A stretch of 64,000 nt of DNA from a virus (IMGVR_UViG_3300033182_000581:30492-94491); one strand, 5' to 3'. Positions 20,792 to 42,952 are shown, counted from the first letter of the stretch. The notes: generated by a model from the sequence alone, not told the origin. Made by a program: numbers and translations.

Positions 20792-21031
20792 ATGAAGTAT
20801 TTGTATTTTTCAGCAGCATGGTGTGGCCCTTGTAGAACATTAGGCCCGATTATGAATCAGGTTTCATCAGAAGTTCCTGTACAAAAAGTAGATGTTGATT
20901 CTGAGTATGAGTTAGCACAAAAGTTTAACGTAAGAAACATCCCAACTGTGGTGTTGGTAAATGGTGATTCTGAATTGAAACGATTTGTTGGAGTACAAAG
21001 TAAAGATACCTACATAAACGCAGTAAAATAA
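20792..21031 (+). CDS. trxA: Thioredoxin
   Basis: WCGPC active site and IPT cis-Pro motif. Confidence 0.92.
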   Translation: MKYLYFSAAWCGPCRTLGPIMNQVSSEVPVQKVDVDSEYELAQKFNVRNIPTVVLVNGDSELKRFVGVQSKDTYINAVK

Positions 21032-21032
21032 A

Positions 21033-21064
21033 TTTGGATAATTAAAAAATTATTCGTATATTAG
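21033..21064 (+). promoter_or_regulatory. Bacteroidota-type promoter heading the nucleotide-modification operon
   Basis: TTTG 21033, TATATTAG 21057, 20-nt spacer; ATG at 21070. Confidence 0.75.
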
Positions 21065-21069
21065 TAGTT

Positions 21070-21492
21070 ATGAAAAAGCAATTACAACAATTATTGGAAT
21101 TCCAAAGAGCGTATAATTCTACGAGAAACACCAAACCAACCTTAATCTCAGAAGATGATTATGTACTAAGATATAAGTTGGGTAAAGAGGAACTGATAGA
21201 ATATTTTGATGCGTGTAAAGATGGAAACTTAACTGAGGTGGCAGATGCACTCGCAGACCAATTGTACATCCTTTTGGGTACAATGATTTCCCACGGTATG
21301 CAAGATGTAATCGAAGATATCTTTGATGAAGTACATCGTTCAAATATGAGTAAGTTAGGTTCAGATGGTAAACCCATTTATAGAGAAGATGGTAAGATTC
21401 TCAAAGGGCCTAACTTTTCACCACCTAATATATCTAAGTATCTTTCAAATAATGGTCAAATAGAAATCCCATTGGATGAAAAGGTACATTAA
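21070..21492 (+). CDS. MazG-like (PRA-PH family) NTP pyrophosphohydrolase
   Basis: EELIE...EVADALADQLY...EVHRSNMSK...REDGKILKGPNF. Confidence 0.88.
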   Translation: MKKQLQQLLEFQRAYNSTRNTKPTLISEDDYVLRYKLGKEELIEYFDACKDGNLTEVADALADQLYILLGTMISHGMQDVIEDIFDEVHRSNMSKLGSDGKPIYREDGKILKGPNFSPPNISKYLSNNGQIEIPLDEKVH

Positions 21493-21697
21493 GATGGTAG
21501 GTAAGGCCGCGTGGATGTTTGATAATAGGTTGAGGGGCGAAAATCATCCCAACGCTAAACTATCATCTGAAGATGTAGTTAAGATTAGAGAATTGCATTC
21601 CAAAGGGTTCTCAGTAAGAGTTATTGCAAAAAACTTTAAAGTATCCAATTGGAATATCAAACGTATAGTAGATAGAAAAACGTGGGTTCACATTTAA
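21476..21697 (+). CDS. Small HTH DNA-binding protein resembling the C-terminal domain of phage HNH endonucleases
   Basis: RGENHPNAKL...IR...IAKNFKVS...I...KTWVHI; no HNH catalytic motif. Confidence 0.7.
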   Translation: MKRYIKMVGKAAWMFDNRLRGENHPNAKLSSEDVVKIRELHSKGFSVRVIAKNFKVSNWNIKRIVDRKTWVHI

Positions 21698-21713
21698 TAG
21701 AAATAAATAAGTT

Positions 21714-22412
21714 ATGACATTAATAGAAGCAACTTCTCCAGGTGATGCATGGGTAAAAGTATCAAAACATCTTTTAGAAAATGGAGTTAGAGTAGGTAAC
21801 CTAACTGAAGAACTAAATGTAATGACAGAAATCACCGAATTCAAATCGGATGATTGGTTCGATGGCCATTTTAGAGAAGTTATGGGTGATGATAGAATTG
21901 ATTTTGCCAAAACGGTAACATTCCTTAAACCAGAACCTAAAAAATCAGATAATGCATTCTTTGAAGCAGAAGAAGGGTTGGATTATAAATTTATCAAAGA
22001 CCACTATCACCAATCTTATTGGGGTAGAATGGTTAGTTGGAGAGGTGAATTCAATCAGATTGAGAATGTAATAAAAATTCTTTCGACTGGGAAGGCAGTT
22101 AAACGTTGTGAGTTGATTATATTCGACCCCACAAAAGATGCACGAAACCCATACTCACAACCTTGTATGGTTATGATTGATTTAAAACCAAGAGATGGTA
22201 AGTTATATCTAACATCCGTTCTTCGTTCAAATAGAGTATCTAAATCTGGTTATGCAGATTATACCGCATTAGTAGAGATGGGTAATTTCCTTTCTGAGCA
22301 GAGTGGTTTGGAATTGGGTAAGGTAAGTGTACTTGCGTGTTCTTGTCATATTGGTGATATGAATGAAGAAAAAAAGAAAACCATTAAATTACTAGAAATT
22401 TTAGGTAAGTAA
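21714..22412 (+). CDS. Divergent thymidylate-synthase / dCMP-hydroxymethylase superfamily protein
   Basis: YWGRM, NQIE, catalytic PC (QPCM), RSNRVSKSGYAD aligning to TS RSxD...N, SCHI. Confidence 0.8.
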   Translation: MTLIEATSPGDAWVKVSKHLLENGVRVGNLTEELNVMTEITEFKSDDWFDGHFREVMGDDRIDFAKTVTFLKPEPKKSDNAFFEAEEGLDYKFIKDHYHQSYWGRMVSWRGEFNQIENVIKILSTGKAVKRCELIIFDPTKDARNPYSQPCMVMIDLKPRDGKLYLTSVLRSNRVSKSGYADYTALVEMGNFLSEQSGLELGKVSVLACSCHIGDMNEEKKKTIKLLEILGK

Positions 22413-22413
22413 T

Positions 22414-23919
22414 ATGTGTGGTATAGTTACAACAATAGGTTACGATACATCAGATGTAAATGTGATGTTAGATGCAATTGAGCATAGAGGTAGAGATTAT
22501 AGAGGTATCAATGAATTTGAAGTAAATGGTAAAAAGGTAGTTTTAGGACATAACCGATTATCCATCAATGATACATCTTCTGCCGGAAATCAACCTATGG
22601 AGTACGATGGTGTTTGGTTAGTAGTTAATGGTGAAATTTGGAACTATCCACAACTTCGAAAAGAATATGAAGAGAGAGGGTATAAATTCAAATCAAATTC
22701 AGATTCAGAGATTATTTTATTCTTATATAAAGAGGGTGAGTTAAAACGTCTGAATGGTATGTTTTCATTTGTTATTTTTGACGGAAGTAAACTAATCGTA
22801 TCTCGCGATTGGGTTGGTAAAATTCCATTGTATATCCACAACACTAACAAATACATTATTGCGAGTGAGATTAAGGCTATACAAACTCAAAACGGAATCA
22901 ATGATATTAAGATAGTTCCTAAAAACACCTTAATTGAGATTGATTTGAATACAGATGAGTTTATTGTACATAAAGATTACTACTTTAACTTTTCATCAGA
23001 AGTTACTCATGTAACATCACATGAAGATGTGGCAGAAACAACATTTAAATTATTAGAATCTGCAGTTGATAAAAGGTTAATATCAGATGTACCTATTGCA
23101 ACATCTCTAAGTGGTGGTATTGATTCAGCAATCATTACTTACCTATTGGCACAGAGAATTCCAAATATAAAAGCATATACTATTGCGTTTGACCAGGAAT
23201 CAAAAGATTTACAAAAGGCAAGGGTTTGTGCAGAATCAATAGGAATTGAATTAGTTGAGGTGTTTGTACCTCGCGATGAAAAGATTATCAAACAAAGATT
23301 TATGGAATCTATCAAAGTGATTGAGTTTCCATCAACCGTTCAAATGGAAGTTGGTATCCTACAATCATTCATAGCTGAAGAAATGGCCAAAGATGGTATC
23401 AAAGTAGCATTTAGTGGTGAGGGTTCTGATGAATCATATGGTTCTTACGGAACGTTCAGAATGTTCAGTAAGAAACCAGATTGGAGTGGTGTTAGAAAAA
23501 AACTATTTGAAAAACAACACTATGGTAATCTACTCAGAGGTAATACTATTTTTATGAATTATGGTACTATCGAATTGAGGTGTCCATTCTTTGATACGGA
23601 TTTCTTAGATTATACCACCAACCTTACCGATGAGTTCTTATCTCACAAAGGACAGTGGAAATTACCACTTGCAAATGCGTTTAGAGGTAAATTACCAGAT
23701 GAGATATTAGACCAGGAGAAACGTGCGTTTCAGAAAGGCACTAACTTTAAACAATACATAGAGGATATTATTCTTAATGATGCTGAGATAAACTTCAATA
23801 ACCGAAAAAATATGATTCACGTTATTGGTGATAATTTCAAAAGAATACATGGGTTTCCACATAAAAAACTAAGAGAAGAAGTAACATCAAATAATATTGG
23901 TATCTATCAATGGGTTTAA
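22414..23919 (+). CDS. asnB: Asparagine synthetase B-like glutamine amidotransferase
   Basis: N-terminal MCGI, HRG, HNRLSI, NGEIWN, SDSE; LSGGIDS; SGEGSDE; ELRCPF. Confidence 0.9.
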   Translation: MCGIVTTIGYDTSDVNVMLDAIEHRGRDYRGINEFEVNGKKVVLGHNRLSINDTSSAGNQPMEYDGVWLVVNGEIWNYPQLRKEYEERGYKFKSNSDSEIILFLYKEGELKRLNGMFSFVIFDGSKLIVSRDWVGKIPLYIHNTNKYIIASEIKAIQTQNGINDIKIVPKNTLIEIDLNTDEFIVHKDYYFNFSSEVTHVTSHEDVAETTFKLLESAVDKRLISDVPIATSLSGGIDSAIITYLLAQRIPNIKAYTIAFDQESKDLQKARVCAESIGIELVEVFVPRDEKIIKQRFMESIKVIEFPSTVQMEVGILQSFIAEEMAKDGIKVAFSGEGSDESYGSYGTFRMFSKKPDWSGVRKKLFEKQHYGNLLRGNTIFMNYGTIELRCPFFDTDFLDYTTNLTDEFLSHKGQWKLPLANAFRGKLPDEILDQEKRAFQKGTNFKQYIEDIILNDAEINFNNRKNMIHVIGDNFKRIHGFPHKKLREEVTSNNIGIYQWV

Positions 23920-24746
23920 AAGGATTTAACGAAGAAACTCCATTAGAGGAGTACAAAGTAAAAGGTCGTTCTGTTTGGGTAAAGAGAGATGACCTAATGG
24001 GTGATGGTGTTAGTTTACCGCCGTGGGGTAAGATTGGCGCAGTTTATGAACTTGTTAAAAAGTATGTAGATAGAAATAGACCATTAACTCACTTATCAGT
24101 AGATGGTTCTTGGACAGGTTGGGTTCTTGCAGCAATATGTGAAGATTTAGGAATTGAGTTCCACGTTTCGTATCCAGACTCTAAAAAGATTAGTAGAGTT
24201 TATTTGGATATGATACAAGAAATGTATCCATCAGTACATATGAATCCCATCAAACCAAATATGATGCAGATTATGTATAACTCTTTAAAAAGTACAGCTA
24301 AAGAGAATGGTTGGCAGATGTTACCATATGCGTTTGACCACGAATTTTATAGAGAATACCTTAAAGAAAGAATACAACCATATAAACATTTTAAAAATTT
24401 AGTTGTATCTTCGGGTAGTGGTGTAACTCTTTCTGGTCTTATGATGGGGTATTATGATGAAGAGTTAAAACAATTTTTTGTTAAGACTGATAAAAAAGTA
24501 TGGACAACGTGCGTATCATCTGAAAGTTCAATTCGAAAAATGTTATTAAAAAGTGGTGTTGGGCAAGTACCGATTGATATTAGAAAATCAGAGTATGGTT
24601 TTGATGATAGATTAGAAGGTTATGAAGCACCATTCCCATGTAATCAGTTTTGGGATATTAAACAATGGCATTGGTTAGAAAACAACATTGATTCTTTAGA
24701 AGGTGATATCCTTTTTTGGAACATCGGTGGCCTTTACAAATTTTAA
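23910..24746 (+). CDS. PLP-dependent fold-type II enzyme (ACC deaminase / D-cysteine desulfhydrase-like)
   Basis: TPLEE...VWVKRDDL...GK (PLP Lys), SSGSGVT phosphate loop, LFWNIGG. Confidence 0.8.
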   Translation: MGLKGFNEETPLEEYKVKGRSVWVKRDDLMGDGVSLPPWGKIGAVYELVKKYVDRNRPLTHLSVDGSWTGWVLAAICEDLGIEFHVSYPDSKKISRVYLDMIQEMYPSVHMNPIKPNMMQIMYNSLKSTAKENGWQMLPYAFDHEFYREYLKERIQPYKHFKNLVVSSGSGVTLSGLMMGYYDEELKQFFVKTDKKVWTTCVSSESSIRKMLLKSGVGQVPIDIRKSEYGFDDRLEGYEAPFPCNQFWDIKQWHWLENNIDSLEGDILFWNIGGLYKF

Positions 24747-24807
24747 CAATTTCTTAACATTAGAAATTTGGATATTACAAAAACTTTTTGTATATTAACA
24801 CTGTATT
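24743..24807 (+). promoter_or_regulatory. Repeated element copy 3
   Basis: TTAACA 24743, TTAACA 24754, TTTG 24767, TATATTAA 24791. Confidence 0.8.
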
Positions 24808-24827: not shown

Positions 24828-26459
24828 ATGAAGTTAATAAAGGAACATAACTGTGAGAGTATGGTTTGGACTCTGCAGGGTCAACCATTGGAACATGGTT
24901 TCGATGGTCAAAACTTCCTCATGGAGTGGGATGATAACTCGATTGGTTACGGTGGTAACTCCGTTATAAATAAGTTATTTAAAGATTCTAATGGTAGATG
25001 GTCTATTATTAGGGGACAACAAGGTGGTTCTTGTACCGATGAAAGATTTATCTACGGATTTATCGATAAGAAAAAAAGAAACAACGAAGAGCGAAATAGA
25101 AGTGAATCCAGTGGTTTAGCCGAGATGGGTGGTTCAGTTTCAACTCATAACTTTAGTACTAACGAAGTAGTTGGTTATGTAACTCCTGATAGGAAATTTA
25201 GAATAGCGAAATTCGAATACGGATTTCCAAATGGTTTAGAAACATCGGAAGTAACCCCTTCCGATTTTGTAAAACTACAATCATTAAAGGTTAGTATTTA
25301 CGAAGTTTCAAAAGAAGAATATTTGAATGAACATGGTCTTGGAAAATCGTTCAACGGATGGTTTAATAAATCTCTCCTTTTTAAAGGAACACGATTAAGA
25401 CCTGATTTTTACGGATTGGTTGATTTTTCATCAATGAGATATCAGTTTAGAACTGGTAAGAAGTTGAAGTATGAACTTCATGTTGAAGGTGAAGAACCAA
25501 TTTCACTTCCAACTAAAAGATTTTACTTCCCATGTAATTCAGGTGAGCCAGTAACTCACTACTCTCAAATGTTAGAAGTTGAGGATACTGAAGGTGAAAC
25601 ACTCCACACAATCCATTGTGGTTCTGATGTGTACGAAGGAACTTTACATAGTTATGAAACAATCAGAGCATCTCAGACTGATAAGTTGATGAAGTTAGAG
25701 AATATGGCAGGTGGTCAACACATGATTCACCCAACTCACTCTAAGAAGTTAGATTTTCCAACCATCGATGTAATCGACGCGAGTGGTACTTATATTACTA
25801 CCGTTCCATTGTTTACTACGAGTAGATGGGATGAGTTCTACAACAATAGAAAGTGGTTCTTTGTTCTCACATCCGATTCAGCAGTACCATTCGCAAGAAT
25901 GAAGAATCAGTTCTCTAATATGGAGTTTCCAATTGAGTTAAGAGCATATGTTAAGAGATTGGCTAAAAAACTTGATTTAGGTCATACAGGCTCTAAAAAG
26001 ATGCTAAAGAAGATTGAGGATGCAGAGGTTCAAAATTATGTAGATTGTTTAAAAGATGAAAATAACCCATCACATGCTACAGTTCTCCTTAATACTGAAA
26101 AGATTATTGGTGGTAAGATTGAAGTTAATAACATCGTTAGAGAGTGTACTACATATTCATTCAACACCGATTTAATTTTTAATTCAAATCACGAACACTT
26201 AGTTGAGTGGCAGAAAGATGGAATGGATGATGAACACATCACAGAGTTTATTGCCAGATTGGTGATGCCACGACATAAGTTCAAAACACTAACATGGGTT
26301 CATGGTGGTGAATCATCCAATTTGATTGGTAAGTTAAAAGAAGTAATAGAGGGTGGTAGAGTTAACCTTAATGGTATTGAGAAAATTCAAACAGTTAATA
26401 AGAAAGATTTCTATACTACTAAAGGTTATCAAAACGTAACAATCATTTATCAGAAATAA
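24828..26459 (+). CDS. Hypothetical protein; probable divergent GHKL/MORC ATPase fused to a PD-(D/E)xK-like nuclease
   Basis: MEWDDNSIG (ExxDNS box), SGLAEMGGS lid; C-terminal RE...TDLIF...LVEWQK...DDEHI. Confidence 0.5.
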   Translation: MKLIKEHNCESMVWTLQGQPLEHGFDGQNFLMEWDDNSIGYGGNSVINKLFKDSNGRWSIIRGQQGGSCTDERFIYGFIDKKKRNNEERNRSESSGLAEMGGSVSTHNFSTNEVVGYVTPDRKFRIAKFEYGFPNGLETSEVTPSDFVKLQSLKVSIYEVSKEEYLNEHGLGKSFNGWFNKSLLFKGTRLRPDFYGLVDFSSMRYQFRTGKKLKYELHVEGEEPISLPTKRFYFPCNSGEPVTHYSQMLEVEDTEGETLHTIHCGSDVYEGTLHSYETIRASQTDKLMKLENMAGGQHMIHPTHSKKLDFPTIDVIDASGTYITTVPLFTTSRWDEFYNNRKWFFVLTSDSAVPFARMKNQFSNMEFPIELRAYVKRLAKKLDLGHTGSKKMLKKIEDAEVQNYVDCLKDENNPSHATVLLNTEKIIGGKIEVNNIVRECTTYSFNTDLIFNSNHEHLVEWQKDGMDDEHITEFIARLVMPRHKFKTLTWVHGGESSNLIGKLKEVIEGGRVNLNGIEKIQTVNKKDFYTTKGYQNVTIIYQK

Positions 26460-26483: not shown

Positions 26484-27713
26484 ATGACAGAAATACAACA
26501 ATATTTTGAGAAGTTTAAAGATATGGAGCCATACTTAGAAATCAATGAAGAAGAATGGTCTTACATAAAAGAAACTTTCCCAAAAGATGAGGTAAAAGAA
26601 GTATTGGCGGATATTCTTATGGATTATCCACTACCAACTTCTGAAATAAGTGAAGTTGATGCATATAATGATTTTATGAAACTAAAAGGAATTCGTTGGA
26701 ATGAACTTTTAGTAGAAGATGAGTGGTTTCCACGAAAAGCATCCGAATCAAAATATCCACTAATCTTCAGAGGTAAACCACAATATATTCGTAGATTAAA
26801 TACAGGTAATAATGCATCAAATCATTTTCAACAAGAAAATCGTTGGGGTGTAGATGGAACTGTATCACCTGGCCCAAAACGAACATGGGAAACGAGAAAG
26901 TTTATGGTTACTCTAATCGGTGGGTTATACACTCTTAAATTTCCAAAGGTTACCCGAAACGAATTGAGAGTTTGTTTAAGTTTAAGAAAATACATTTGTT
27001 CACAATTCAAACCAAATGTTGCAAAGGTATTCTATGAAATGATGGGTTCTGAGAACGTATTAGATTTTAGTGCAGGGTGGGGTGATAGATTCGCTGGATT
27101 TATGGCAGCAACAAACACCAAACATTATGTAGGGTTAGACCCTCGTAAAGAAAACCATCCTTACTATCATATGCAAGGTGAGTTCTATGATAAACACTTA
27201 GGGTTCTTTGAAGGTAACAAAGATTGGGAGTTTCATATCACTGCAGCAGAAGATTTTGATTTTACTCCTTATGATAATCATTTCGATATGGTGTTTACAT
27301 CACCACCTTACTTTTCAGTAGAGAGGTATTCATATGATGATAATCAGAGTTGGGTTCGATACAAAACGATTGATGATTGGAACAAAAACTTCCTACATAA
27401 AACTATTGAAAAGCTTTGGCCATCGATTAAGAAGGGTGGTTACATCGCAGTTAACATCGCTGATGTATATGCATCATCTGGCGGTGAGAGAAAGTATATG
27501 GAAATAACAAACCCAATGAATGATTTTATTAAATCGTTAGGTGGTACTTATGAAGGGTGTTTAGGTATGGAAATGGCTAAACGACCAGGTTCAGTTGGTG
27601 CAGGATTGGTAATCGAAGAGGATAGAGATAGATATACTGAAGAAGAATTAAGAAAGCATGATGAAAATGTTGGTAAAACATTTTGTGAACCAATTTGGAT
27701 TTGGAAGAAGTAG
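26484..27713 (+). CDS. DNA amino-methyltransferase (N4-C/N6-A type), paralog 1
   Basis: SQFKP, LDFSAGWGDR (motif I), FTSPPYF (motif IV), EPIWIW. Confidence 0.85.
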   Translation: MTEIQQYFEKFKDMEPYLEINEEEWSYIKETFPKDEVKEVLADILMDYPLPTSEISEVDAYNDFMKLKGIRWNELLVEDEWFPRKASESKYPLIFRGKPQYIRRLNTGNNASNHFQQENRWGVDGTVSPGPKRTWETRKFMVTLIGGLYTLKFPKVTRNELRVCLSLRKYICSQFKPNVAKVFYEMMGSENVLDFSAGWGDRFAGFMAATNTKHYVGLDPRKENHPYYHMQGEFYDKHLGFFEGNKDWEFHITAAEDFDFTPYDNHFDMVFTSPPYFSVERYSYDDNQSWVRYKTIDDWNKNFLHKTIEKLWPSIKKGGYIAVNIADVYASSGGERKYMEITNPMNDFIKSLGGTYEGCLGMEMAKRPGSVGAGLVIEEDRDRYTEEELRKHDENVGKTFCEPIWIWKK

Positions 27714-28918
27714 TGGATATTAAAGAAGTTTTTAAGAAATATTATAATATGAAACCATATCTTCAGATTGAAGAAGATGAGTGGCAACATATTATTACTA
27801 CTTATGAAAAAGATGAGGTGGTTGATGAACTCGCCAAATGTTTACATACATACCCATGTCCAATACCAGAAATATCTGAAGAAGAAACTCTTAAATCTTT
27901 AAAGTTATTAAAAGGTGTAAAGTGGCCTAAATTACTTATTGAAAAGGAGTGGTTTCCTCGAAATGAGAGAAAATCAAAATACCCTTTAACCGAAAAATAC
28001 TTTAAAAGAGATAATAGCGGAAACAACGCATCAAACCCATTTCACATTGAAAATAGATGGAAGGTGGATTGGACACGTAGTCCATCTGGTTGGAGAACCT
28101 GGCAGACGGTAGATGGTATCAAAACAATTGTTCGTGCATTTTGGAGTTTAGAGCAGGTTTTAACAAAAGTAGATTTACAATCAATTAGAATGGCAACCAC
28201 TCTACGCAAGTATGTGGCTTCTCAATTTAAACCATCGATTGCAAAAGTATTTTATGATTATTTTAAATCAGAAAATGTATTAGATTTTTCAGCAGGTTGG
28301 GGTGATAGGTTGGCCGGGTTCTATTGTGGTGAAACTACAAAACATTATGTTGGTATTGACCCCAATACATTAAATCATCCAAATTATAAAAAACAGATTG
28401 AGTTCTATAAGAAACATCAAACTTTTTTTGAAGAACCAAAGCAGGTGGATTTAATTTGTATGCCCGCAGAAGATGTAGATTTTTCTAAGTACGAAAACCA
28501 CTTTGATACTGTATTTACATCCCCACCATATTTCGATGTTGAACGATATTCGGATGAGGATACACAAAGTTGGGTAAGGTATAAAAATATAGATGATTGG
28601 AATAAAAACTTTTTACATAAAACACTTGGTAATATCATTCCAGCTGTAAAAAAAGGTGGTATATTGGCAATCAATATTGCGGATGTTTGGTCTGCAAAAG
28701 ATAAGGATTACTTTGAGATTTGTAATCCTATGAATGAGTTTTTAGAATCACAAGGATTAACATATTATGGTTGTATCGGAATGGAGATGACAAAGAGATT
28801 TAATTCAGGTGGTGCAGGAAATGCTAAGAGTGAGTATTTTGAGGAACATTTAAAAGAAACAACTGAAGAGAAAAAAGATGTTGCTTTTGGTGAACCGATT
28901 TGGATTTTTAAAAAATAA
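27713..28918 (+). CDS. DNA amino-methyltransferase, paralog 2 (likely GTG start 27713)
   Basis: Same motifs, colinear with paralog 1; GTG start aligns the N-termini. Confidence 0.85.
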   Translation: MDIKEVFKKYYNMKPYLQIEEDEWQHIITTYEKDEVVDELAKCLHTYPCPIPEISEEETLKSLKLLKGVKWPKLLIEKEWFPRNERKSKYPLTEKYFKRDNSGNNASNPFHIENRWKVDWTRSPSGWRTWQTVDGIKTIVRAFWSLEQVLTKVDLQSIRMATTLRKYVASQFKPSIAKVFYDYFKSENVLDFSAGWGDRLAGFYCGETTKHYVGIDPNTLNHPNYKKQIEFYKKHQTFFEEPKQVDLICMPAEDVDFSKYENHFDTVFTSPPYFDVERYSDEDTQSWVRYKNIDDWNKNFLHKTLGNIIPAVKKGGILAINIADVWSAKDKDYFEICNPMNEFLESQGLTYYGCIGMEMTKRFNSGGAGNAKSEYFEEHLKETTEEKKDVAFGEPIWIFKK

Positions 28919-31504: not shown

Positions 31505-32218
31505 ATGGAAAAAGTTCGTGTAAACCGATTTATTCAGAAGTACAACCTTGCTGGGTTAATCGAATCTGTGAAGTGGGGTGTCGAGGGAGACACATTAACC
31601 ACGCAATTTATTTCAGATGACAAATCCGTGCTAGGTAATGTTACTATGACAGGTTTTGATTTTGAAGATGGTGAGTATGGTATTTACGATACCACAAAGT
31701 TCACCAAAATGTTATCAGTATTATCAAATGATGTAGATATCACTCCATCTAAGTTTGATGGTAAGGTAACTGCCATTGATTTATCTGATAAAGGTACATC
31801 GGCAACTTATATGTTGGCAGACCTCTCAGTTATTCCAGTTGTTCCTGATTTGAAACAACTACCACCATTCGATGTTCAAATTGATATCGATTCTACATTT
31901 GTAGATAGATTCAATAAGGCAAAGAGTGCTCTTTCTGATGAGAAAAACTTTACATTCCAATGTAAGGGTGGTAATGGTAAAATCATCATTGGTTATTCTA
32001 AAACCAATACTAACAGAATCTCTATTGATGTAAATTGTAAATGTGAAAACGATGTAGATGGTATTTCATTCTCAGCAGATTTCTTAAAAGAAATTCTAAA
32101 TGCAAATAGAGATGCATCTTCGGCATCATTAAAGATTTCAACACAAGGATTGGCTAACCTAAAATTCGATGTAGACAATTATACATCTGAATATTACTTA
32201 GTAGAGGTACAATCATAA
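31505..32218 (+). CDS. Sliding clamp (gp45/PCNA-like)
   Basis: 237 aa; GIYD...LSVL, SFSADFLKEIL, YYLV C-terminus; next to PolB and clamp loader. Confidence 0.75.
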   Translation: MEKVRVNRFIQKYNLAGLIESVKWGVEGDTLTTQFISDDKSVLGNVTMTGFDFEDGEYGIYDTTKFTKMLSVLSNDVDITPSKFDGKVTAIDLSDKGTSATYMLADLSVIPVVPDLKQLPPFDVQIDIDSTFVDRFNKAKSALSDEKNFTFQCKGGNGKIIIGYSKTNTNRISIDVNCKCENDVDGISFSADFLKEILNANRDASSASLKISTQGLANLKFDVDNYTSEYYLVEVQS

Positions 32219-33849
32219 TGAATCATTTTTACGAACGTTCACAGTTTTCCACATTTAAATCCAATACAACTTATCATCAGTTACTACAAATGACTGATGA
32301 TGAGTTTGTGGATTGGGCTCGTACGCTTCGTAAAGAGGTTACAGAGCAGTGGGATGAAAGAGGTACTCCACCTGTTATAGGTAAGAATGAGAAAGGTATC
32401 ATAACTTCTATGAAAAAACTTAAATCCAACTCTGCAGATTATTGGGAGAAAGATTTGAGTGGAGATAGTGGTTCATTGGGTATCATCAAAAATTTCAATA
32501 AAGATGCATCAGTTGTAAATCAGTTTTTCCCAACAATGTTAAAAACTAAGATTTCAATTGGTAAATCTGCAGATGGTGGGTTGAGTATTTATGACCATTT
32601 CTCAGACCCCGATATGGAAGATAAGTTCGTAAAGATTATGAAACGGTCTGTAAAAAGGGATTCAATGTATTCCTGGTCGCGTTCTATTGTTAATAAGAGG
32701 GATGAGAACCCATTTTGGAATGGTCAAACTGGATATGATTTTGTAAAAGAAGTACATGATGGTAAAATATTCAATGGGAAATATTCTAATTACTCAATAG
32801 TTCTTGCAAAGGTAAAAGAAGATACTTTAGAGAATTATGGAACTTTCAACGCAGAGTATGTTGGGTTTAGTAATCTTTATTTATCTGCAGATGAAGTTAA
32901 TGAACTAAAAGATGGTGGGTATCTGAACCAAACCCAATTATCAAACATCGATAAAATAGAACCATCATATGAACTAAAAGATGGTACTAAGAAGAATTAT
33001 CACTATTTAATTCGATGGTATGATAAGACAGTTGGTATATTCCCTAAAATACTTCAGGTATTTAGATTAGGATGTGGACAACCCGCAGTTAACTTCCCGG
33101 CCCTTACTGCTAAATGGATTTATGAAAACTATACATCACATATTGAGCAAGATGAACCATTAAACATTTATGATTCATCTGCAGGTTGGGGTGGTAGAAT
33201 TATGGGTGCTATGAGTAGTAGAAAGAAAATCCACTACATTGGAACTGACCCAAATCCCGATAACTTTATTGATGAATTAGGTATCACACGATATGAATAT
33301 CTTGCAGATTTCTACAATAAAAATTGTGTTGATGATTTCTCAGATAAACTAACAACATTCTTTAATGTAGAAAAACAATCTAATACATATGATGTTTATC
33401 AAGAGGGTTCTGAATTAATTCAACATAATCCAAACTTTCAGAAGTATAAAGGTAAGTTGGATTTGGCGTTCACATCACCGCCGTACTTTAATAGAGAACA
33501 ATATTCACAAGATGAAAAACAATCATTTAAGGCGTATGGTGAGTATGAAGATTGGAGAGATAACTTTCTTAGACCAACTTTAACTACAATCTATGAATAT
33601 CTTAAAAATGATAGATACATCCTTTGGAATATTGCAGATATTAAAATCGGTAGTAATACATATTACCCATTAGAGCAAGATTCAATTGATATCTTAGAAG
33701 AGTTGGGTTGTGAGTATAAGGGTAAGTTGAAAATGTTGATGACAAGAATGATTGGATTAGACCCATCTAAGAGTGGTATTAAAAACGCAGTAGAGTATGA
33801 AGGAAAGGCTTATAAGTTTGAACCTATATTTGTATTTCACAAACCATGA
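32218..33849 (+). CDS. DNA amino-methyltransferase, paralog 3 (with large insertion)
   Basis: VNFPALTAK, YDSSAGWGGR, GTDPN, FTSPPYFNREQY, EPIFVF. Confidence 0.82.
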   Translation: MNHFYERSQFSTFKSNTTYHQLLQMTDDEFVDWARTLRKEVTEQWDERGTPPVIGKNEKGIITSMKKLKSNSADYWEKDLSGDSGSLGIIKNFNKDASVVNQFFPTMLKTKISIGKSADGGLSIYDHFSDPDMEDKFVKIMKRSVKRDSMYSWSRSIVNKRDENPFWNGQTGYDFVKEVHDGKIFNGKYSNYSIVLAKVKEDTLENYGTFNAEYVGFSNLYLSADEVNELKDGGYLNQTQLSNIDKIEPSYELKDGTKKNYHYLIRWYDKTVGIFPKILQVFRLGCGQPAVNFPALTAKWIYENYTSHIEQDEPLNIYDSSAGWGGRIMGAMSSRKKIHYIGTDPNPDNFIDELGITRYEYLADFYNKNCVDDFSDKLTTFFNVEKQSNTYDVYQEGSELIQHNPNFQKYKGKLDLAFTSPPYFNREQYSQDEKQSFKAYGEYEDWRDNFLRPTLTTIYEYLKNDRYILWNIADIKIGSNTYYPLEQDSIDILEELGCEYKGKLKMLMTRMIGLDPSKSGIKNAVEYEGKAYKFEPIFVFHKP

Positions 33850-34343
33850 TAAACTTTAATGATTATATAAGTACTGTTCCAAACTATCCAACAGATGATG
33901 TGTTGTATAGAGATATTCAACCGCTTCTAATGAATCAGATGGTATTCAAAGAGGTAATCAAACGAATGGGTAGCATGGTTACTATACCCAATTATTGGGT
34001 TGCGTTGGAATCAAGAGGATTTCTATTTGCAACAGCGTTATCGTATAAGTTTGGTGGTGGAGTTCGATTGATTAGAAAACCAGGTAAACTTCCAAACGAT
34101 GGTGTTATTACAGTACCATATGAATTGGAATATGGAAGTGGCCACTTAGAAATGGCAGTATTTGATGAAGAAGATGCAACTTGTGTAATTGTGGATGATG
34201 TATTCGCAACAGGTGGAACTATGAGAGCAGCACAAATTCTTTGTGAAGCAAATGGGTTAGAGGTAATTGATAAGTTAGTTCTTATTGATATTGGTATTAC
34301 TGAATCGGATGATGTAAAATCCCTAATATATTATGGCGAGTAA
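33846..34343 (+). CDS. apt: Adenine phosphoribosyltransferase
   Basis: ESRGF, RKPGKLP, YELEYG, PRPP motif IVDDVFATGGT. Confidence 0.9.
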   Translation: MINFNDYISTVPNYPTDDVLYRDIQPLLMNQMVFKEVIKRMGSMVTIPNYWVALESRGFLFATALSYKFGGGVRLIRKPGKLPNDGVITVPYELEYGSGHLEMAVFDEEDATCVIVDDVFATGGTMRAAQILCEANGLEVIDKLVLIDIGITESDDVKSLIYYGE

Positions 34344-34899
34344 CATCCTATTACTTTCGGCAACCGATTTAGAACACAACCAAACCTCAATCGGTGATTG
34401 GCCAATACACATTACAGGTGTGGGTAAGATATCATCTGCGTTAAGAACTACTGAATTAATAAAAGAACACAAACCTCTTTTAGTGATTAATTTTGGTTCA
34501 TGTGGTAATCTTAAAAATCACAAAGTAGGTGAGTTGTTGAGTGTGGGTAAGGTTTATAATGATATTGATGCAAGACCATTTGCAGAATATGGGCAAACAC
34601 CATTTTCCCCATTAAGAGAAATTGGTTTAGATTCAAAATCAGATATTAAATGCTTCACTACTGATATTATTTATGATATTGGTAGAGGGGATTACCCAAC
34701 ACAATACCAACAAATGATTAAAGAGTGTGATATCGTAGATATGGAGTTGTACTCAATTGCGTGGGTTTGTAGGTATTACTCTAAACCATTGTTATCCTAC
34801 AAATGGGTGAGTGATGATGGTGAAACTGATAAGTGGGAAGAAAACGCATCAAAAGGGTTTAACAAATTTAAATCTGAGATTTTAAATAAATTTGGATAA
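34333..34899 (+). CDS. mtnN: MTA/SAH nucleosidase (PNP/UDP family)
   Basis: TGVGK, INFGSCG, VDME, KWVSD. Confidence 0.82.
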   Translation: MASNILLLSATDLEHNQTSIGDWPIHITGVGKISSALRTTELIKEHKPLLVINFGSCGNLKNHKVGELLSVGKVYNDIDARPFAEYGQTPFSPLREIGLDSKSDIKCFTTDIIYDIGRGDYPTQYQQMIKECDIVDMELYSIAWVCRYYSKPLLSYKWVSDDGETDKWEENASKGFNKFKSEILNKFG

Positions 34900-39719: not shown

Positions 39720-41108
39720 ATGAGTAAAAAGAAAAAGATTCTATTATTATCCGATGATTTGAGATTGCATAGTGGTATCGCAACCATGTCAAAGGAAATT
39801 GTATTACATACCTCACATATATACGATTGGATTCAGGTAGGTGCAGCAGTTAAACATCCAGATGAGGGTAAATTCTTTGATGTATCGGATTCAGTAAATG
39901 AAGAGGCCGGCATTGATAACGCAAACGTTAAGATTATACCAATGAGTGGGTATGGTAATCAAGACTTAATTAGACAATTGATTACAACTGAAAACCCTGA
40001 TGCAATCCTACACTTTACTGACCCACGTTTTTGGGATTGGTTATATGCTATGGAAGATGAAATCCGTAGACATATTCCTATCTTTTATTATAATATTTGG
40101 GATGATTTACCAGACCCACAATGGAATGCACCATTCTATGGAAGTTGTGATTTGTTGATGGGAATCTCTAAACAAACGTATGGTATCAACAAAAGAGTAA
40201 TGGATAAGTTTGGTATGACAATGGAAGATTGGCAAATCAAATATGTACCACATGGTGTATCTGAGAAGTTTAAACCAATCTTAAAAGATTCAGATGATTA
40301 TCAAAAAGTAATTGATATGAAATCTAAATTGGGTATTGGTGATAAAAAGTTCGTTGTACTATACAACAATAGAAACATTCGTAGAAAGAATCCAGGTGAT
40401 GTGATATTGGCATACAAAGAATTTTGTGATACTCTAACACCCGAAGAAGTTAAAGATGTTGTTCTCCTATTCCATACTCAGCAAGTAGACCCAAATGGTA
40501 CTGATTTGCCTGAAGTGATTAAGAATGTTTGTCCTGATTATGATGTTCAATTCACAAACTCTCAGTTCTCAACTGATGATTTGAATGTATTATACAATCT
40601 TGCAGATGTTACAATCAATATGGCATCTAATGAAGGATTTGGATTGGCAACTTGTGAATCAGTAAAAGCAGGTACACCAATCGTAGTGAATGTAACAGGT
40701 GGGTTACAAGACCAATGTAACTTTACTATCGATGGTAAGTATATCACAGCAGACCAATATGTTGAATTAGGTTCACTTCACAATCGTAAGAAATTGCCTG
40801 AGAATCTAAGTTGGGGTAGTTGGGTAAATCCAATCTGGCCTACGAATCGTTCTCTACAAGGTTCACCTGTAACTCCATATATCTTTGATGATAGATGTTC
40901 GTATGAAGATGCAGGTAAGGCATTAAGACAGTGGTATGATACACCAGCAGAACGTAGAACTGAATGTGGTTTGGAAGGTTCTGTATGGGTAAACTCAGTA
41001 GAAAGTGGTATGAGTGCTAGATATATGGGTCAGAGATTTATTGATTCTATGAATGGTGCATTTGAAAATTGGAAACCAAAAACGGAAGTTACATTATGGA
41101 AAATATAA
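39720..41108 (+). CDS. Glycosyltransferase, GT-B (GT4-like)
   Basis: NNRNIRRKN, EGFGLATCESVKAGTP. Confidence 0.88.
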   Translation: MSKKKKILLLSDDLRLHSGIATMSKEIVLHTSHIYDWIQVGAAVKHPDEGKFFDVSDSVNEEAGIDNANVKIIPMSGYGNQDLIRQLITTENPDAILHFTDPRFWDWLYAMEDEIRRHIPIFYYNIWDDLPDPQWNAPFYGSCDLLMGISKQTYGINKRVMDKFGMTMEDWQIKYVPHGVSEKFKPILKDSDDYQKVIDMKSKLGIGDKKFVVLYNNRNIRRKNPGDVILAYKEFCDTLTPEEVKDVVLLFHTQQVDPNGTDLPEVIKNVCPDYDVQFTNSQFSTDDLNVLYNLADVTINMASNEGFGLATCESVKAGTPIVVNVTGGLQDQCNFTIDGKYITADQYVELGSLHNRKKLPENLSWGSWVNPIWPTNRSLQGSPVTPYIFDDRCSYEDAGKALRQWYDTPAERRTECGLEGSVWVNSVESGMSARYMGQRFIDSMNGAFENWKPKTEVTLWKI

Positions 41109-42436
41109 AAAAGTTATGTGTAGTGAGTTGTCCTATTTCGACTCGAAGTGGGTATGGCGCACGAAGTAGAGATTTTGTTAGAGGTTTGATTGAATCTAAA
41201 CCTGATTGGGATATTCGAATTCTTTCTCAGAGATGGGGTATGACCGCAATGGATGCTCTTAAAGAAGGTGAAGATGATGATTTATTAAGTAGAATCATTA
41301 CTGAAAAGATGAATACTCAACCAGATGTTTGGATTCAGATTACAGTACCAAATGAGTTCCAACCCGTTGGTAAATATAACATTGGTGTAACTGCTGGTGT
41401 AGAAACAACTATCATGCCTGCAGAATGTTTGGAAGGTATCAATCGAATGAATAAAGTATTGGTATCATCTGAGTTTACAAAGCAGGTAATTATGAGTTCG
41501 GTGTATGATAAGAAAGACCAACAAACAAATCAAGCAGTAGGACAGTTGAAATGTAATGTTCCTGTTGAAGTATTGTTTGAAGGTATTGATTTAGAAGTGT
41601 ACAATGAGAAAGCACAACCTGAAGAACGAATCAATAATGTAATGAAGGAAATCAAAGAAGATTTCGCATTCTTATTTGTAGGACATTGGTTAAAGGGTGA
41701 TTTTGGACAAGATAGAAAAAACGTAAGTGGTTTGATTTGGACGTTCTTACAAGCGTTTCAAAATAAAAAGAAGCAACCCGCATTGATTCTAAAAACATCA
41801 GCAGGTTCAACATCATTGGTTGATAGAGTTAAGTTGAGAAAAGTAATCCAACAAATCAAAGAGCAAGTTGGTGGTACTAGACTACCAAATATTTATTTAC
41901 TACATTCAGATTTATCCGATTGGGAGATGAATGCACTGTATAATCATCCAAAGGTAAAAGCTCACATATCATTTACGAGAGGTGAGGGTTTTGGTAGACC
42001 TTTATTAGAAGCAACAATTAGTGGTAAACCTATGATTGTAAGTGGTTGGAGTGGACATATGGATTTTATTAATCCAGAATATGTAAGTGTGATAGGTGGT
42101 AAATTGGATAATGTGCATAAATCGGCTGCAGATAAATTCTTATTAGCAGATGGACAGTGGTTTTCAATCGATTACAACCATGCAGGTAGTGTTATGAGAG
42201 ATATGTTCGATAACTATAAGAAATATTTAGAAAAATCTCGTAAACATCGTAAGTATAGTAAAGATAGATTCTCATTTGATAAAATGATAGAACGTATTGG
42301 TGTATTGTTTGATGAGAGTACGATGGATATCAAAGAACAGCCACAACAGGTTCAGTTAAAACTACCTAAACTTAAAAAAGTTGGTGAAGATAAGAAACCA
42401 GAACTTAAACTACCAAAATTAAAGAAGGTTAAGTAA
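41096..42436 (+). CDS. Glycosyltransferase, GT-B (GT4-like)
   Basis: SGYG, FLFVG...RKN, GEGFGRPLLEA...GKP...WSGHMDF. Confidence 0.88.
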   Translation: MENIKKLCVVSCPISTRSGYGARSRDFVRGLIESKPDWDIRILSQRWGMTAMDALKEGEDDDLLSRIITEKMNTQPDVWIQITVPNEFQPVGKYNIGVTAGVETTIMPAECLEGINRMNKVLVSSEFTKQVIMSSVYDKKDQQTNQAVGQLKCNVPVEVLFEGIDLEVYNEKAQPEERINNVMKEIKEDFAFLFVGHWLKGDFGQDRKNVSGLIWTFLQAFQNKKKQPALILKTSAGSTSLVDRVKLRKVIQQIKEQVGGTRLPNIYLLHSDLSDWEMNALYNHPKVKAHISFTRGEGFGRPLLEATISGKPMIVSGWSGHMDFINPEYVSVIGGKLDNVHKSAADKFLLADGQWFSIDYNHAGSVMRDMFDNYKKYLEKSRKHRKYSKDRFSFDKMIERIGVLFDESTMDIKEQPQQVQLKLPKLKKVGEDKKPELKLPKLKKVK

Positions 42437-42951: not shown

Positions 42952-42952
42952 A

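What the first reader, a model, noticed from the sequence alone, without database searches (positions are those of the whole stretch)
21033..24746. Candidate new base-modification pathway: dCMP-type TS homologue + AsnB-like amidotransferase + PLP fold-II enzyme + MazG
Seen: one promoter drives a tightly packed run (MazG-like, small HTH, TS-like, AsnB-like, PLP enzyme) directly after nrdBA/trx and before the methyltransferases and PolB. Established: phage TS homologues modify C5 of dUMP/dCMP before replication, MazG-type enzymes remove the canonical dNTP, AsnB-family enzymes convert carboxylates to carboxamides, and fold-II PLP enzymes perform beta-elimination/replacement. Inference: the PLP enzyme supplies a non-folate C5 donor (aminoacrylate, 2-oxo acid or sulfide), the TS homologue attaches it to a pyrimidine nucleotide, and the AsnB-like enzyme amidates it, giving an amide-bearing modified cytosine. 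I know no characterised pathway with this trio, and it differs from the 5-hmdU-kinase/amino-acid-transferase and 7-deazaguanine systems.
Basis: partly seen in the sequence, partly recalled or inferred. Interest (0 to 1): 0.92.

Follow-up and report, generated by a model that had tools for sequence, protein, structure and literature searches.

The report
Uncharted phage cytosine hypermodification gene cassette
A 169-kb uncultured aquatic phage carries a tightly packed, widely conserved set of enzymes whose nearest studied relatives all decorate bases in phage DNA, in a combination not described in any paper I could search, so it probably makes an unknown modified cytosine.

Summary
The genes are real and sit at the stated coordinates: MazG, a small HTH protein, a thymidylate-synthase (TS)-fold enzyme, an AsnB-like amidotransferase and a fold-II PLP enzyme. 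Two copies of one promoter-like element bracket the run.

In 44 distinct related loci the PLP gene always lies beside either this TS-like gene (31, plus one TS-AsnB fusion) or a 2-hydroxyacid dehydrogenase (12), never both. An AsnB-like or PP-loop ligase is present in 42 loci, an SPPY methyltransferase-like gene in 40, and MazG in only 3.

- **PLP enzyme:** an end-to-end homologue of Pseudomonas phage M6 gp52, which decarboxylates an amino acid tethered to a base in DNA. It is not obviously a donor supplier.
- **AsnB-like enzyme:** its nearest phage relatives are CmoY-type amide ligases, which act on carboxymethylcytosine in DNA.
- **TS-like enzyme:** it has the dCMP-type Asp, but neither the folate-type Asp169 nor the Asn169 of flavin-dependent 5-hydroxy-dCMP synthases.
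- **Methyltransferase-like and PP-loop domains:** both occur fused to this PLP domain elsewhere.
- **Starter enzymes:** the genome lacks those of the published pathways (5-hmdU kinase, amino-acid:DNA transferase, CmoA, CmoX).

Verdict: a real, widespread, uncharacterised DNA-hypermodification cassette. This scan has noted the same cassette on several other genomes.

The parts
21031..21062 (+). Promoter-like element (TGGATA-16-TATATT) just before the MazG start codon
   Evidence: A near-identical copy lies at 24765-24796.
21070..21492 (+). MazG-like NTP pyrophosphohydrolase. Accessory, not a core member.
   Evidence: PRA-PH E 1.2e-12 and phrog_671 E 1.5e-37. Present in 3 of 44 distinct loci.
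21476..21697 (+). Small HTH protein (73 aa), often found upstream of the TS-like gene in relatives
   Evidence: HTH_38 E 7e-6. tblastn hits at 52-79% identity in most TS-type loci.
21714..22412 (+). TS-fold enzyme (P0001, 232 aa) of the dCMP type with a non-canonical active site
   Evidence: - AF2 model pLDDT 88.
- Top Foldseek matches are MilA CMP hydroxymethylase and HY126 AfhB dCMP hydroxylase.
- The Cys of PC, Arg-Ser of RS and Asp at the N177 position are invariant.
- The D169 position is R or A.
22414..23919 (+). AsnB-like glutamine-dependent amidotransferase (P0002, 501 aa), a relative of CmoY-type enzymes
   Evidence: - GATase_7 plus Asn_synthase. TIGR01536 scores 292.9 bits.
- N-terminal MCG and the SGGIDS PP-loop are conserved.
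- The best cultured-phage hit is TurkishDelight gp124, which lies between CmoX-like and CmoA-like genes.
23910..24746 (+). Fold-II PLP enzyme (P0003, 278 aa), a homologue of M6 gp52
   Evidence: - BLASTP against M6 gp52: 27% identity over the full length, E 2e-27. Lys41 aligns with gp52 K36.
- AF2 model pLDDT 96. Top folds are D-cysteine desulfhydrase and ACC deaminase.
- Lys41 is invariant in 34 family members.
24765..24796 (+). Second copy of the promoter-like element. It closes the five-gene run and precedes the 543-aa gene.
24828..26459 (+). 543-aa protein of unknown family (P0004). An inserted accessory gene, not core.
   Evidence: No Pfam, PHROG or NCBIfam match. Its family has only 8 members in the fetched loci, in about five distinct contigs.
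26484..27713 (+). SPPY methyltransferase-like protein MT1 (409 aa), probably part of the system
   Evidence: Motif I (VLDxSxGWGxR) and TSPPYF are conserved. This family is fused to the PLP domain in P0205. A member lies within 6 kb of the PLP gene in 40 of 44 loci.
27695..28918 (+). SPPY methyltransferase-like protein MT2 (407 aa), a paralogue of MT1
   Evidence: 55% identical to MT1. phrog_12517 E 3.6e-15.
32218..33849 (+). SPPY methyltransferase-like protein MT3 (543 aa)
   Evidence: N6_N4_Mtase scores 27.1 bits. It is homologous over its whole length to the N-terminal part of the MT-PLP fusion P0222 (35% identity, E 1e-38).
33846..34899 (+). Adenine phosphoribosyltransferase (33846-34343) and an MTA/SAH nucleosidase-like protein (34333-34899). 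Possibly salvage of by-products of SAM-dependent transfers. Specific to this genome.
   Evidence: NF002636 scores 137.5 bits, above its cut-off. The MTA/SAH nucleosidase models reach E 1e-13, below their cut-offs. Neither gene is found in the other loci.

Best explanation
This is a DNA-hypermodification cassette of a large uncultured aquatic phage. It has four enzyme roles.

1. A TS-fold enzyme. Here it is the dCMP type and acts on the mononucleotide before replication. In other phages a 2-hydroxyacid dehydrogenase takes this slot.
2. An AsnB-like, CmoY-related amidotransferase. It adenylates a carboxylate tethered to the base and converts it to a carboxamide, using ammonia from glutamine.
3. 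A gp52-like PLP enzyme. It processes, most likely decarboxylates, a base-tethered alpha-amino acid to give a primary amine.
4. SPPY methyltransferase-like enzymes. They bind SAM and the target base in DNA and install or extend the side chain.

The expected end product is a C5-substituted cytosine carrying an amide and/or a primary amine, which would shield the DNA from host nucleases. MazG and the 543-aa gene are accessories.

Shown here: gene content, synteny, homologies, conserved catalytic residues, gene fusions, and the absence of known starter enzymes.

Inferred: every substrate, the order of the steps and the product. One point stays unresolved. The amidotransferase and a decarboxylase cannot both use the same carboxylate, so there must be two carboxylates or two sites. 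My working model, held at low confidence, is this: the TS-like product carries the carboxylate that is amidated, and a SAM-derived 3-amino-3-carboxypropyl group is what the PLP enzyme decarboxylates.
For: **Synteny**
- In 44 distinct loci with enough flank, the PLP gene is always next to TS (31, plus 1 TS-AsnB fusion) or 2HADH (12), and never both.
- AsnB is present in 39 loci, a PP-loop ligase in 3, MT-like genes in 40.

**PLP enzyme**
- Full-length match to M6 gp52 at E 2e-27, with the catalytic Lys aligned.
- gp52 is a proven decarboxylase of Calpha-glycinylthymine in DNA (PMC8989533).
- Amine-acylating partners (GNAT, an LPG_synthase_C-like domain) follow the PLP domain in other contexts. 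That fits an amine product.

**AsnB-like enzyme**
- Cys2 and the PP-loop are invariant.
- The best cultured-phage relative sits between CmoX-like and CmoA-like genes.
- The glutaminase-less replacement found in some loci matches CmoY of S-B43 and of a Staphylococcus phage.
- CmoY ligates DNA 5cxmC to an amine, and a glutamine-type CmoY cluster is predicted to use ammonia (PMC12783734).

**TS-like enzyme**
- TS fold. Its nearest structures are the cytosine-specific MilA and AfhB.
- Asp at the N177 position is invariant, whereas the dUMP enzymes M6 gp58 and PhiF1 have Asn there.
- A separate fragment of a canonical ThyA lies elsewhere in the genome.

**Fusions**
- MT-like plus PLP: P0209, P0222, P0205.
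- PP-loop plus PLP: P0225.

**Absences**
- No ADDT, HMUDK, CmoA or C5-methyltransferase in the 93%-complete genome.
Against: - No chemistry has been measured and no isolate exists.
- P0002 scores above NCBIfam's equivalog cut-off for asparagine synthase (292.9 against 267.1 bits), so a plain metabolic role is not excluded by sequence.
- A complete 134.5-kb genome with the PLP, 2HADH and AsnB' genes has no TS-family match. The core therefore does not need a C5 enzyme, and the TS-like gene might act in a separate pathway.
- The nearest solved folds of the PLP enzyme are deaminases that make 2-oxo acids. Its constant pairing with a 2-hydroxyacid dehydrogenase in 12 loci fits deamination better than decarboxylation.
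- No source for the carboxylate has been identified.
- The methyltransferase-like proteins could be ordinary N4-C or N6-A methyltransferases.
Confidence: 0.55

Rival explanations
1. There are two independent modifications rather than one pathway. The methyltransferase-like enzyme and the PLP enzyme together aminopropylate a base in DNA: 3-amino-3-carboxypropyl transfer from SAM, then decarboxylation, as MccD and MccE do for microcin C. The TS-like enzyme separately makes 5-hydroxymethyl- or 5-hydroxy-dCMP. The amidotransferase would belong to one of the two branches.
For: - MT-PLP fusions exist.
- The locus L135 has ThiF-like, MT-like, PP-loop-PLP and GNAT genes in the order of the mcc operon.
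- The core occurs without any TS.
- An MTA/SAH nucleosidase-like gene and APRT follow MT3.
- The nearest cultured-phage TS relatives sit beside beta-glucosyltransferases.
- The microcin C precedent is from my own knowledge, not from a tool.
Against: - TS or 2HADH is obligatory and mutually exclusive next to the PLP gene (44 of 44).
- The AsnB subfamily changes together with it, at 33-36% identity between the two types. That argues for one pathway.
- TS, AsnB and PLP are separated by +1 and -10 nt.
- P0001 lacks both the folate Asp169 signature and the Asn169 hydroxylase signature.
Confidence: 0.2
2. The PLP enzyme makes an electrophile from an amino acid, either an aminoacrylate or a 2-oxo acid. 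The TS-like enzyme adds C5 of dCMP to it without folate. In the other cassette type the 2-hydroxyacid dehydrogenase reduces the same 2-oxo acid. The amidotransferase then amidates the resulting acid, giving a 2-amino- or 2-hydroxy-amide side chain.
For: - It explains why TS and 2HADH are alternatives beside one and the same PLP enzyme (89% identical in both contexts).
- It explains why the AsnB subtype changes with them.
- The nearest PLP folds make 2-oxo acids.
- The folate-binding Asp169 is lost, and the residue aligned with Glu58 is K, S, R or G.
- gp52's own substrate is a beta-(pyrimidin-5-yl)alanine.
Against: - No TS-fold enzyme is known to use a non-folate carbon electrophile.
- The one characterised relative of the PLP enzyme is a decarboxylase acting on DNA.
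- Arg at position 169 is not conserved (Ala in the L048 clade).
- The scheme gives no role to the MT-PLP fusions.
Confidence: 0.12
3. These are ordinary auxiliary metabolic genes that merely sit together in a variable region: asparagine synthetase, an amino-acid deaminase and a divergent thymidylate synthase.
For: P0002 and AsnB' pass the TIGR01536 cut-off. The region between nrd and polB is a hot spot for insertions such as homing-endonuclease-like genes, a GmrSD-like gene, a SAM-lyase-like gene and a chaperonin.
Against: - Adjacency is strict over about 40% protein divergence and in unrelated phage backbones.
- There are fusions with DNA-methyltransferase-like domains.
- No relative of the PLP enzyme was found in 185,579 bacterial and archaeal genomes at the sensitivity used.
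- The aspartate-binding Asp384 of E. coli AsnB is Asn here. I read this from the alignment; the role of Asp384 is from my own knowledge.
Confidence: 0.05

Closest known systems
CmoA/CmoX/CmoY pathway of Synechococcus phage S-B43 (5-carboxymethylcytosine and its glycine amide; PMC12783734)
   Same: - Both pair a cytosine-C5 enzyme that uses a catalytic Cys with an AsnB-family ATP-dependent amide-forming enzyme.
- Both have glutaminase-bearing and glutaminase-less variants of that enzyme.
- P0002's best cultured-phage hit and the PP-loop replacement both fall in Cmo clusters.
   Different: - There is no CmoA and no C5 DNA methyltransferase in this genome.
- The C5 enzyme here has the TS fold and so should act on the nucleotide, not on DNA.
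- A gp52-like PLP enzyme and SPPY methyltransferase-like genes are added.
Thymidine hypermodification of Pseudomonas phage M6 and Salmonella phage ViI (PMC8989533, PMC5889632)
   Same: - A TS-family enzyme supplies a modified pyrimidine nucleotide.
- A homologous fold-II PLP enzyme (gp52, gp226) tailors an amino acid appended to the base.
   Different: - No 5-hmdU DNA kinase, no amino-acid:DNA transferase and no radical SAM isomerase.
- The pyrimidine is predicted to be cytosine.
- An amidotransferase and methyltransferase-like enzymes are present instead.
TS-fold dCMP enzymes: T4 dCMP hydroxymethylase, MilA, and the flavin-dependent 5-hydroxy-dCMP synthases (RB69 gp48, DLP3 gp80, HY126 AfhB; PMC13326640)
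   Same: Same fold, catalytic Cys, Arg-Ser phosphate motif and Asp at the N177 position. They are also the top structural matches.
   Different: - Position 169 is Arg or Ala, not Asp (folate enzymes) or Asn (hydroxylases).
- Position 143, counted back from the Cys, is Ser or Gly rather than Leu or Asp/Glu.
- No glycosyltransferase is adjacent.
Microcin C aminopropylation by MccD and MccE (recalled from my own knowledge, not checked in a paper here)
   Same: A SAM-dependent methyltransferase-fold enzyme is followed by a PLP decarboxylase and a GNAT. The locus L135 has ThiF-like, MT-like, PLP and GNAT genes in that order.
   Different: The target there is a peptidyl-nucleotide, not DNA. As far as I recall, the MccE decarboxylase has a different PLP fold.

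Membership tests
Folate-dependent thymidylate synthase / dCMP hydroxymethylase | TS fold with catalytic Cys146 and the Arg166-Ser167 phosphate-binding pair | tested here: met
   AF2 model pLDDT 88. Foldseek E 2e-12 to MilA and 6e-10 to T4 dCMP hydroxymethylase. PC and RS are invariant in 12 family members.
Folate-dependent thymidylate synthase / dCMP hydroxymethylase | Asp169, which contacts the pterin, in the RSxD motif | tested here: not met
   The motif is RSNR, RSMR or RSQA in the family, against RAND in MilA and RSND in the dUMP and dCMP phage enzymes.
Folate-dependent thymidylate synthase / dCMP hydroxymethylase | Catalytic Glu58 | tested here: inconclusive
   In the MAFFT alignment A2 the aligned residue is K, S, R or G, where nattely and M6 gp58 have Glu. 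Identity is only 16-25%, and I made no structure-based check.
Folate-dependent thymidylate synthase / dCMP hydroxymethylase | Score above Pfam's gathering threshold for PF00303 | tested here: not met
   21.7 bits against 24.3. TIGR03283 scores 72 bits against 174.6.
Flavin-dependent 5-hydroxy-dCMP synthase | Asn at position 169, the diagnostic residue named in PMC13326640, together with Asp at 177 | tested here: not met
   Position 169 is R or A. Asp177 is present. AfhB reads RSQN...D in the same alignment.
Class II (Ntn) glutamine amidotransferase / asparagine synthetase B family | N-terminal Cys nucleophile, glutamine-binding residues and the SGGxDS PP-loop | tested here: met
   - MCG start, HNRLSI, NGEIWN, SDSE, SLSGGIDS and SGEGSDE align with E. 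coli AsnB 1ct9.
- These are invariant in 12 homologues.
- TIGR01536 scores 292.9 bits, above the 267.1 cut-off.
Class II (Ntn) glutamine amidotransferase / asparagine synthetase B family | Makes asparagine from aspartate | not testable with these tools
   The residue aligned with E. coli Asp384 is Asn, while Arg387 and Lys449 are kept. The roles of these residues are from my own knowledge.
CmoY-type DNA amide ligase | Homology to CmoY, and a genomic partnership with CmoA and CmoX | tested here: not met
   Homology holds: TurkishDelight gp124 at E 2e-53, and the PP-loop variant against S-B43 CmoY at E 1e-5. CmoA and C5-methyltransferase are absent from the genome. It is a relative, not a member of that system.
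gp52-type PLP decarboxylase of base-tethered amino acids | Full-length homology, the Schiff-base Lys and PLP fold type II | tested here: met
   - E 2e-27 over 278 aa, with K41 aligned to K36.
- phrog_7093 E 3.6e-24.
- Lys invariant in 34 sequences.
- Fold II.
gp52-type PLP decarboxylase of base-tethered amino acids | Partnership with the 5-hmdU DNA kinase and the amino-acid:DNA transferase; decarboxylase activity | tested here: not met
   PF18748, PF18723 and PF18724 have no match in the genome. Enzyme activity cannot be tested here.
N6-A / N4-C amino-methyltransferase | SAM-binding motif I and the (S/N/D)PPY motif IV | tested here: met
   VLDxSxGWGxR and TSPPYF are invariant across MT1-3, distant relatives and the fused forms. 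Pfam scores straddle the cut-off: 25.7, 19.2 and 27.1 bits against 26.7. Whether the group transferred is methyl is untested.

The most novel reading that the evidence does not exclude
The TS-like enzyme is a third chemical type within the thymidylate-synthase fold. It would be neither folate-dependent nor a flavin hydroxylase, and would join C5 of dCMP to a carboxyl-bearing carbon electrophile made by the PLP enzyme. The 2-hydroxyacid dehydrogenase is the alternative consumer of that same intermediate in sister cassettes. Together with SAM-derived aminocarboxypropyl transfer by a methyltransferase-like enzyme, the cassette would write a new amide- and amine-bearing cytosine into DNA by reactions not yet known for DNA.
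Probability: 0.12. Interest if true: 0.92.

Novelty: new variant of a known kind. Interest (0 to 1): 0.78.

Why it matters
Phage DNA hypermodifications decide which restriction enzymes and CRISPR systems can cut a phage, and they have given useful enzymes to biotechnology.

This cassette is abundant. Its amidotransferase has more than 120 protein clusters at 75% identity or above, and the PLP family has 460 clusters at 50% identity. It also spreads across different phage backbones.

It combines relatives of three recently characterised DNA-modifying enzyme families, yet lacks the starter enzymes of all of their pathways. Solving it would probably reveal:
- a new modified cytosine;
- a new active-site type in the thymidylate-synthase fold;
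- a functional link between methyltransferase-like proteins and PLP chemistry on DNA.

The modular swaps give a ready-made comparative experiment: TS for a dehydrogenase, a glutamine amidotransferase for a plain ligase, and added acyltransferases.

Tried and rejected
- **Complex prediction:** Complex prediction of the AsnB-like with the TS-like protein gave no answer (score 0.00). This is neither for nor against binding.
- **Cellular genomes:** a scan of 185,579 bacterial and archaeal genomes for relatives of the PLP enzyme found none.
- **TurkishDelight methyltransferases:** BLAST against MT1-3 showed no similarity. They proved to be CmoX-like and CmoA-like instead.
- **Isoelectric points:** pI values of the enzyme families did not separate DNA-acting from metabolite-acting enzymes. 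M6 gp52 itself has pI 6.5.
- **ThyA fragment:** an Rfam scan around it found no intron.
- **Short contigs:** look-ups for the fused proteins P0209, P0205, P0222 and for P0153 landed on short contigs with uninformative neighbours.
- **Rejected, 7-deazaguanine pathway.** The weak QueC hits are only the shared PP-loop. I did not search the genome for DpdA or QueE.
- **Rejected, Arg169 as a conserved carboxylate-binding residue.** It is Ala in the L048 clade.
- **Rejected, MazG as a pathway member.** It is in 3 of 44 loci.
- **Not counted, the TS-AsnB fusion in L046.** It lacks the glutaminase Cys and looks like a deletion, so I give it little weight as evidence of channelling.

Full report
**What is there**

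The window is bases 30492-94491 of a single 169,380-bp viral contig (IMG/VR, estimated 93% complete). It has about 34% G+C, and the ORFs examined here all read on the + strand. By PolB, the nearest cultured phage is Microcystis phage Mel-JY01 (49.5% identity). That phage lacks the genes discussed here.

The finding's ORFs exist as described:
- MazG-like, 21070-21492
- a 73-aa HTH protein, 21476-21697
- a TS-like protein, 21714-22412
- an AsnB-like amidotransferase, 22414-23919
- a fold-II PLP enzyme, 23910-24746

They are packed with overlaps or gaps of at most 17 nt. Two copies of one promoter-like element bracket them, at 21031-21062 and 24765-24796. Upstream are nrdB, nrdA and a thioredoxin gene. 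Downstream are a 543-aa unknown gene, two SPPY methyltransferase-like genes (MT1, MT2), PolB, a clamp-like gene and a third paralogue, MT3.

**Conservation**

A search of IMG/VR with the TS-like protein gave 49 loci at 46-94% identity. Wherever the contig reaches far enough, the TS-like gene is followed by an AsnB-like or PP-loop gene and then the PLP gene. A second search with a PLP alignment gave 80 loci.

I clustered all co-directional ORFs and kept one locus per distinct PLP protein with enough flank. That left 44 loci:

| Partner within 6 kb of the PLP gene | Loci (of 44) |
|---|---|
| TS-like | 31, plus one TS-AsnB fusion |
| 2-hydroxyacid dehydrogenase (2HADH) | 12 |
| TS-like and 2HADH together | 0 |
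| AsnB-like | 39 |
| Glutaminase-less PP-loop protein | 3 |
| SPPY methyltransferase-like | 40 |
| MazG | 3 |

The 2HADH proteins are about 284 aa. They match both 2-Hacid_dh domains and keep invariant Arg, Asp and His residues.

The AsnB subtype changes with its partner. The two types are 33-36% identical to each other. The PLP enzyme does not change in this way. L053 has flanks 85-90% identical to this window and a PLP enzyme 89% identical, yet it carries AsnB' plus 2HADH in place of TS plus AsnB.

A complete 134.5-kb genome of the dehydrogenase type has no TS-family match.

The unit is therefore PLP + amide-forming enzyme + methyltransferase-like enzyme + (TS-like or 2HADH). MazG and the 543-aa gene are accessories.

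**The PLP enzyme**

- P0003 aligns over its whole length with gp52 of Pseudomonas phage M6: 27% identity, E 2e-27. Lys41 sits on gp52 Lys36, and the two share a C-terminal PFPCNxFWDxKxWxWL motif.
- gp52 was shown to decarboxylate Calpha-glycinylthymine in DNA to 5-(2-aminoethyl)uracil (PMC8989533).
- No solved structure matches P0003 by sequence.
- A confident model (pLDDT 96) is fold type II. It is closest to D-cysteine desulfhydrase and ACC deaminase, including 1j0a, the template that paper used for ViI gp226.
- An exhaustive profile search found 460 clusters of this family and none in cellular genomes at the sensitivity used.
- Several members are fused to other domains:
  - P0222 is MT3-like plus PLP.
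  - P0205 is MT1-like plus PLP plus a domain like the aminoacyl-tRNA-dependent transferase of MprF.
  - P0209 is methyltransferase plus PLP.
  - P0225 is a PP-loop domain plus PLP. It lies in a locus reading ThiF-like, MT-like, PP-loop-PLP, GNAT.

These fusions tie the methyltransferase-like and PP-loop enzymes to the PLP enzyme. The acyltransferases that follow suggest that the PLP step produces an amine.

**The amidotransferase**

- P0002 keeps the N-terminal Cys, the glutamine-binding residues and the PP-loop of E. coli AsnB. So do all AsnB and AsnB' genes in the loci.
- It even passes NCBIfam's asparagine synthase cut-off, which keeps a metabolic reading alive.
- Its best hit among cultured phages is gp124 of Streptomyces phage TurkishDelight (31.5% identity over 91% of its length). 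That gene lies between a C5 cytosine methyltransferase homologue and a small class I methyltransferase.
- The glutaminase-less protein that replaces it in some loci matches the "asparagine synthase" of Synechococcus phage S-B43 and a homologue in a Staphylococcus phage. Both lie between CmoA-like and CmoX-like genes.
- Those are the CmoA/CmoX/CmoY clusters of PMC12783734. There CmoY ligates 5-carboxymethylcytosine in DNA to glycine, and a glutaminase-bearing cluster is predicted to use ammonia.
- This genome has neither CmoA nor a C5 methyltransferase.

**The TS-like enzyme**

- The model (pLDDT 88) has the TS fold. Its best matches are the cytosine-specific MilA and the flavin-dependent dCMP 5-hydroxylase AfhB.
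- The catalytic Cys, the Arg-Ser pair and Asp at the N177 position are invariant. The dUMP enzymes M6 gp58 and PhiF1 TS have Asn at that position in the same alignment.
- Position 169 is Asp in folate enzymes and Asn in all tested 5-hydroxy-dCMP synthases (PMC13326640). Here it is Arg, or Ala in a sister clade.
- It therefore fails both membership tests. Arg is also not a conserved adaptation.
- The nearest cultured-phage relatives (23-25% identity) sit next to beta-glucosyltransferases.
- A 70-aa N-terminal fragment of a canonical ThyA lies elsewhere in the genome.

**How it may work**

By homology, three of the enzymes act on side chains of bases: a C5 enzyme, an amide former and a decarboxylase of tethered amino acids. 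A fourth binds SAM and a flipped base. The published starter enzymes are absent, so the handle must arise in another way.

I favour a single cassette that yields an amide- and/or amine-bearing C5-substituted cytosine (0.55). Within that, the working model is only an inference. The TS-like product would carry the carboxylate that is amidated. A SAM-derived aminocarboxypropyl group would be what the PLP enzyme decarboxylates.

The strict alternation of TS with a 2-hydroxyacid dehydrogenase beside one and the same PLP enzyme is not explained by that model. It fits a rival better: the PLP enzyme makes a 2-oxo acid, which is either captured by the TS-like enzyme or reduced by the dehydrogenase. I keep this as a rival (0.12), and it forms the core of the novel case. 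Two independent modifications (0.20) and plain metabolic genes (0.05) remain possible.

**Novelty**

Seven literature searches found no description of this combination. Two papers note amidotransferases of unknown role near hypermodification genes.

Earlier notes of this scan describe the same cassette on other genomes. One of them pointed me to the 5-hydroxy-dCMP synthases, which I then checked myself.

Noticed in passing
L127:1486-1698 (genome C1:120087-120299, outside the window): A 70-aa ORF matches only the first 69 positions of the canonical thymidylate synthase model (E 9e-22) and then stops. The rest of the gene is not found in the genome, and Rfam finds no intron. The ORF just upstream (L127:1118-1489) looks to me like a methylglyoxal synthase-like domain. 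That is read from the sequence and not tested.
   Followed up: partly
window 33846-34899: Adenine phosphoribosyltransferase (above the NCBIfam cut-off) and a short MTA/SAH nucleosidase-like protein lie directly after MT3. This looks like salvage of by-products of SAM-dependent transfers. Neither gene is seen in the related loci.
   Followed up: partly
window 39720-43573: A run of glycosyltransferases: two GT4 genes, one of them matching the 'GT4-conflict' family, and a GT2. Mel-JY01 also has glycosyltransferases at the matching place without any TS-like gene, so they are probably unrelated to the cassette.
   Followed up: no
window 24828-26459: A 543-aa protein with no Pfam, PHROG or NCBIfam match and its own copy of the promoter-like element. 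It occurs in only a few related loci, at 47-97% identity. Other first-reader notes call it a GHKL-nuclease; I did not test that.
   Followed up: no
L046:8001-10133: A single 710-aa ORF joins the TS-like and AsnB-like proteins. It has lost the last 15 residues of the first and the first 14 of the second, including the glutaminase Cys. It is either a deletion variant or an assembly error.
   Followed up: partly
L135:3717-12969: The locus of the PP-loop-PLP fusion reads ThiF-like, MT-like (551 aa), PP-loop-PLP, a 499-aa GNAT and HU, followed by a Sua5/TsaC-like threonylcarbamoyl-AMP synthase and a threonyl-tRNA synthetase-like gene. This is another uncharacterised variant, and its order resembles the microcin C genes.
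   Followed up: partly
P0205 (L129:856-5013): A 1385-aa protein joins an unknown 360-aa N-terminus, an MT1-like domain, the PLP domain and a domain like the aminoacyl-tRNA-dependent transferase of MprF (LPG_synthase_C, E 8e-6).
   Followed up: partly
L076:5371-6861; L037:11613-12242; L099:8800-9357; L059:4558-5730; L078:1394-3016: Variable genes are inserted around the cassette in relatives:
- a GmrSD_N plus HNH protein (type IV restriction-like);
- a SAM lyase-like protein;
- a dUTPase-like protein next to the PLP gene;
- a P-loop/ABC-like ATPase fused to a GNAT, between MT1 and TS;
- a phage chaperonin (Cpn60).
   Followed up: no
L051:6001-8359 and L131:4001-7056: In Enterococcus phage nattely and Lactobacillus phage ATCCB, a TS homologue with Asp at the N177 position lies beside or near a beta-glucosyltransferase. 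In ATCCB a UDP-galactopyranose mutase follows as well. These are likely glycosylated 5-hydroxymethyl- or 5-hydroxy-cytosine phages.
   Followed up: no
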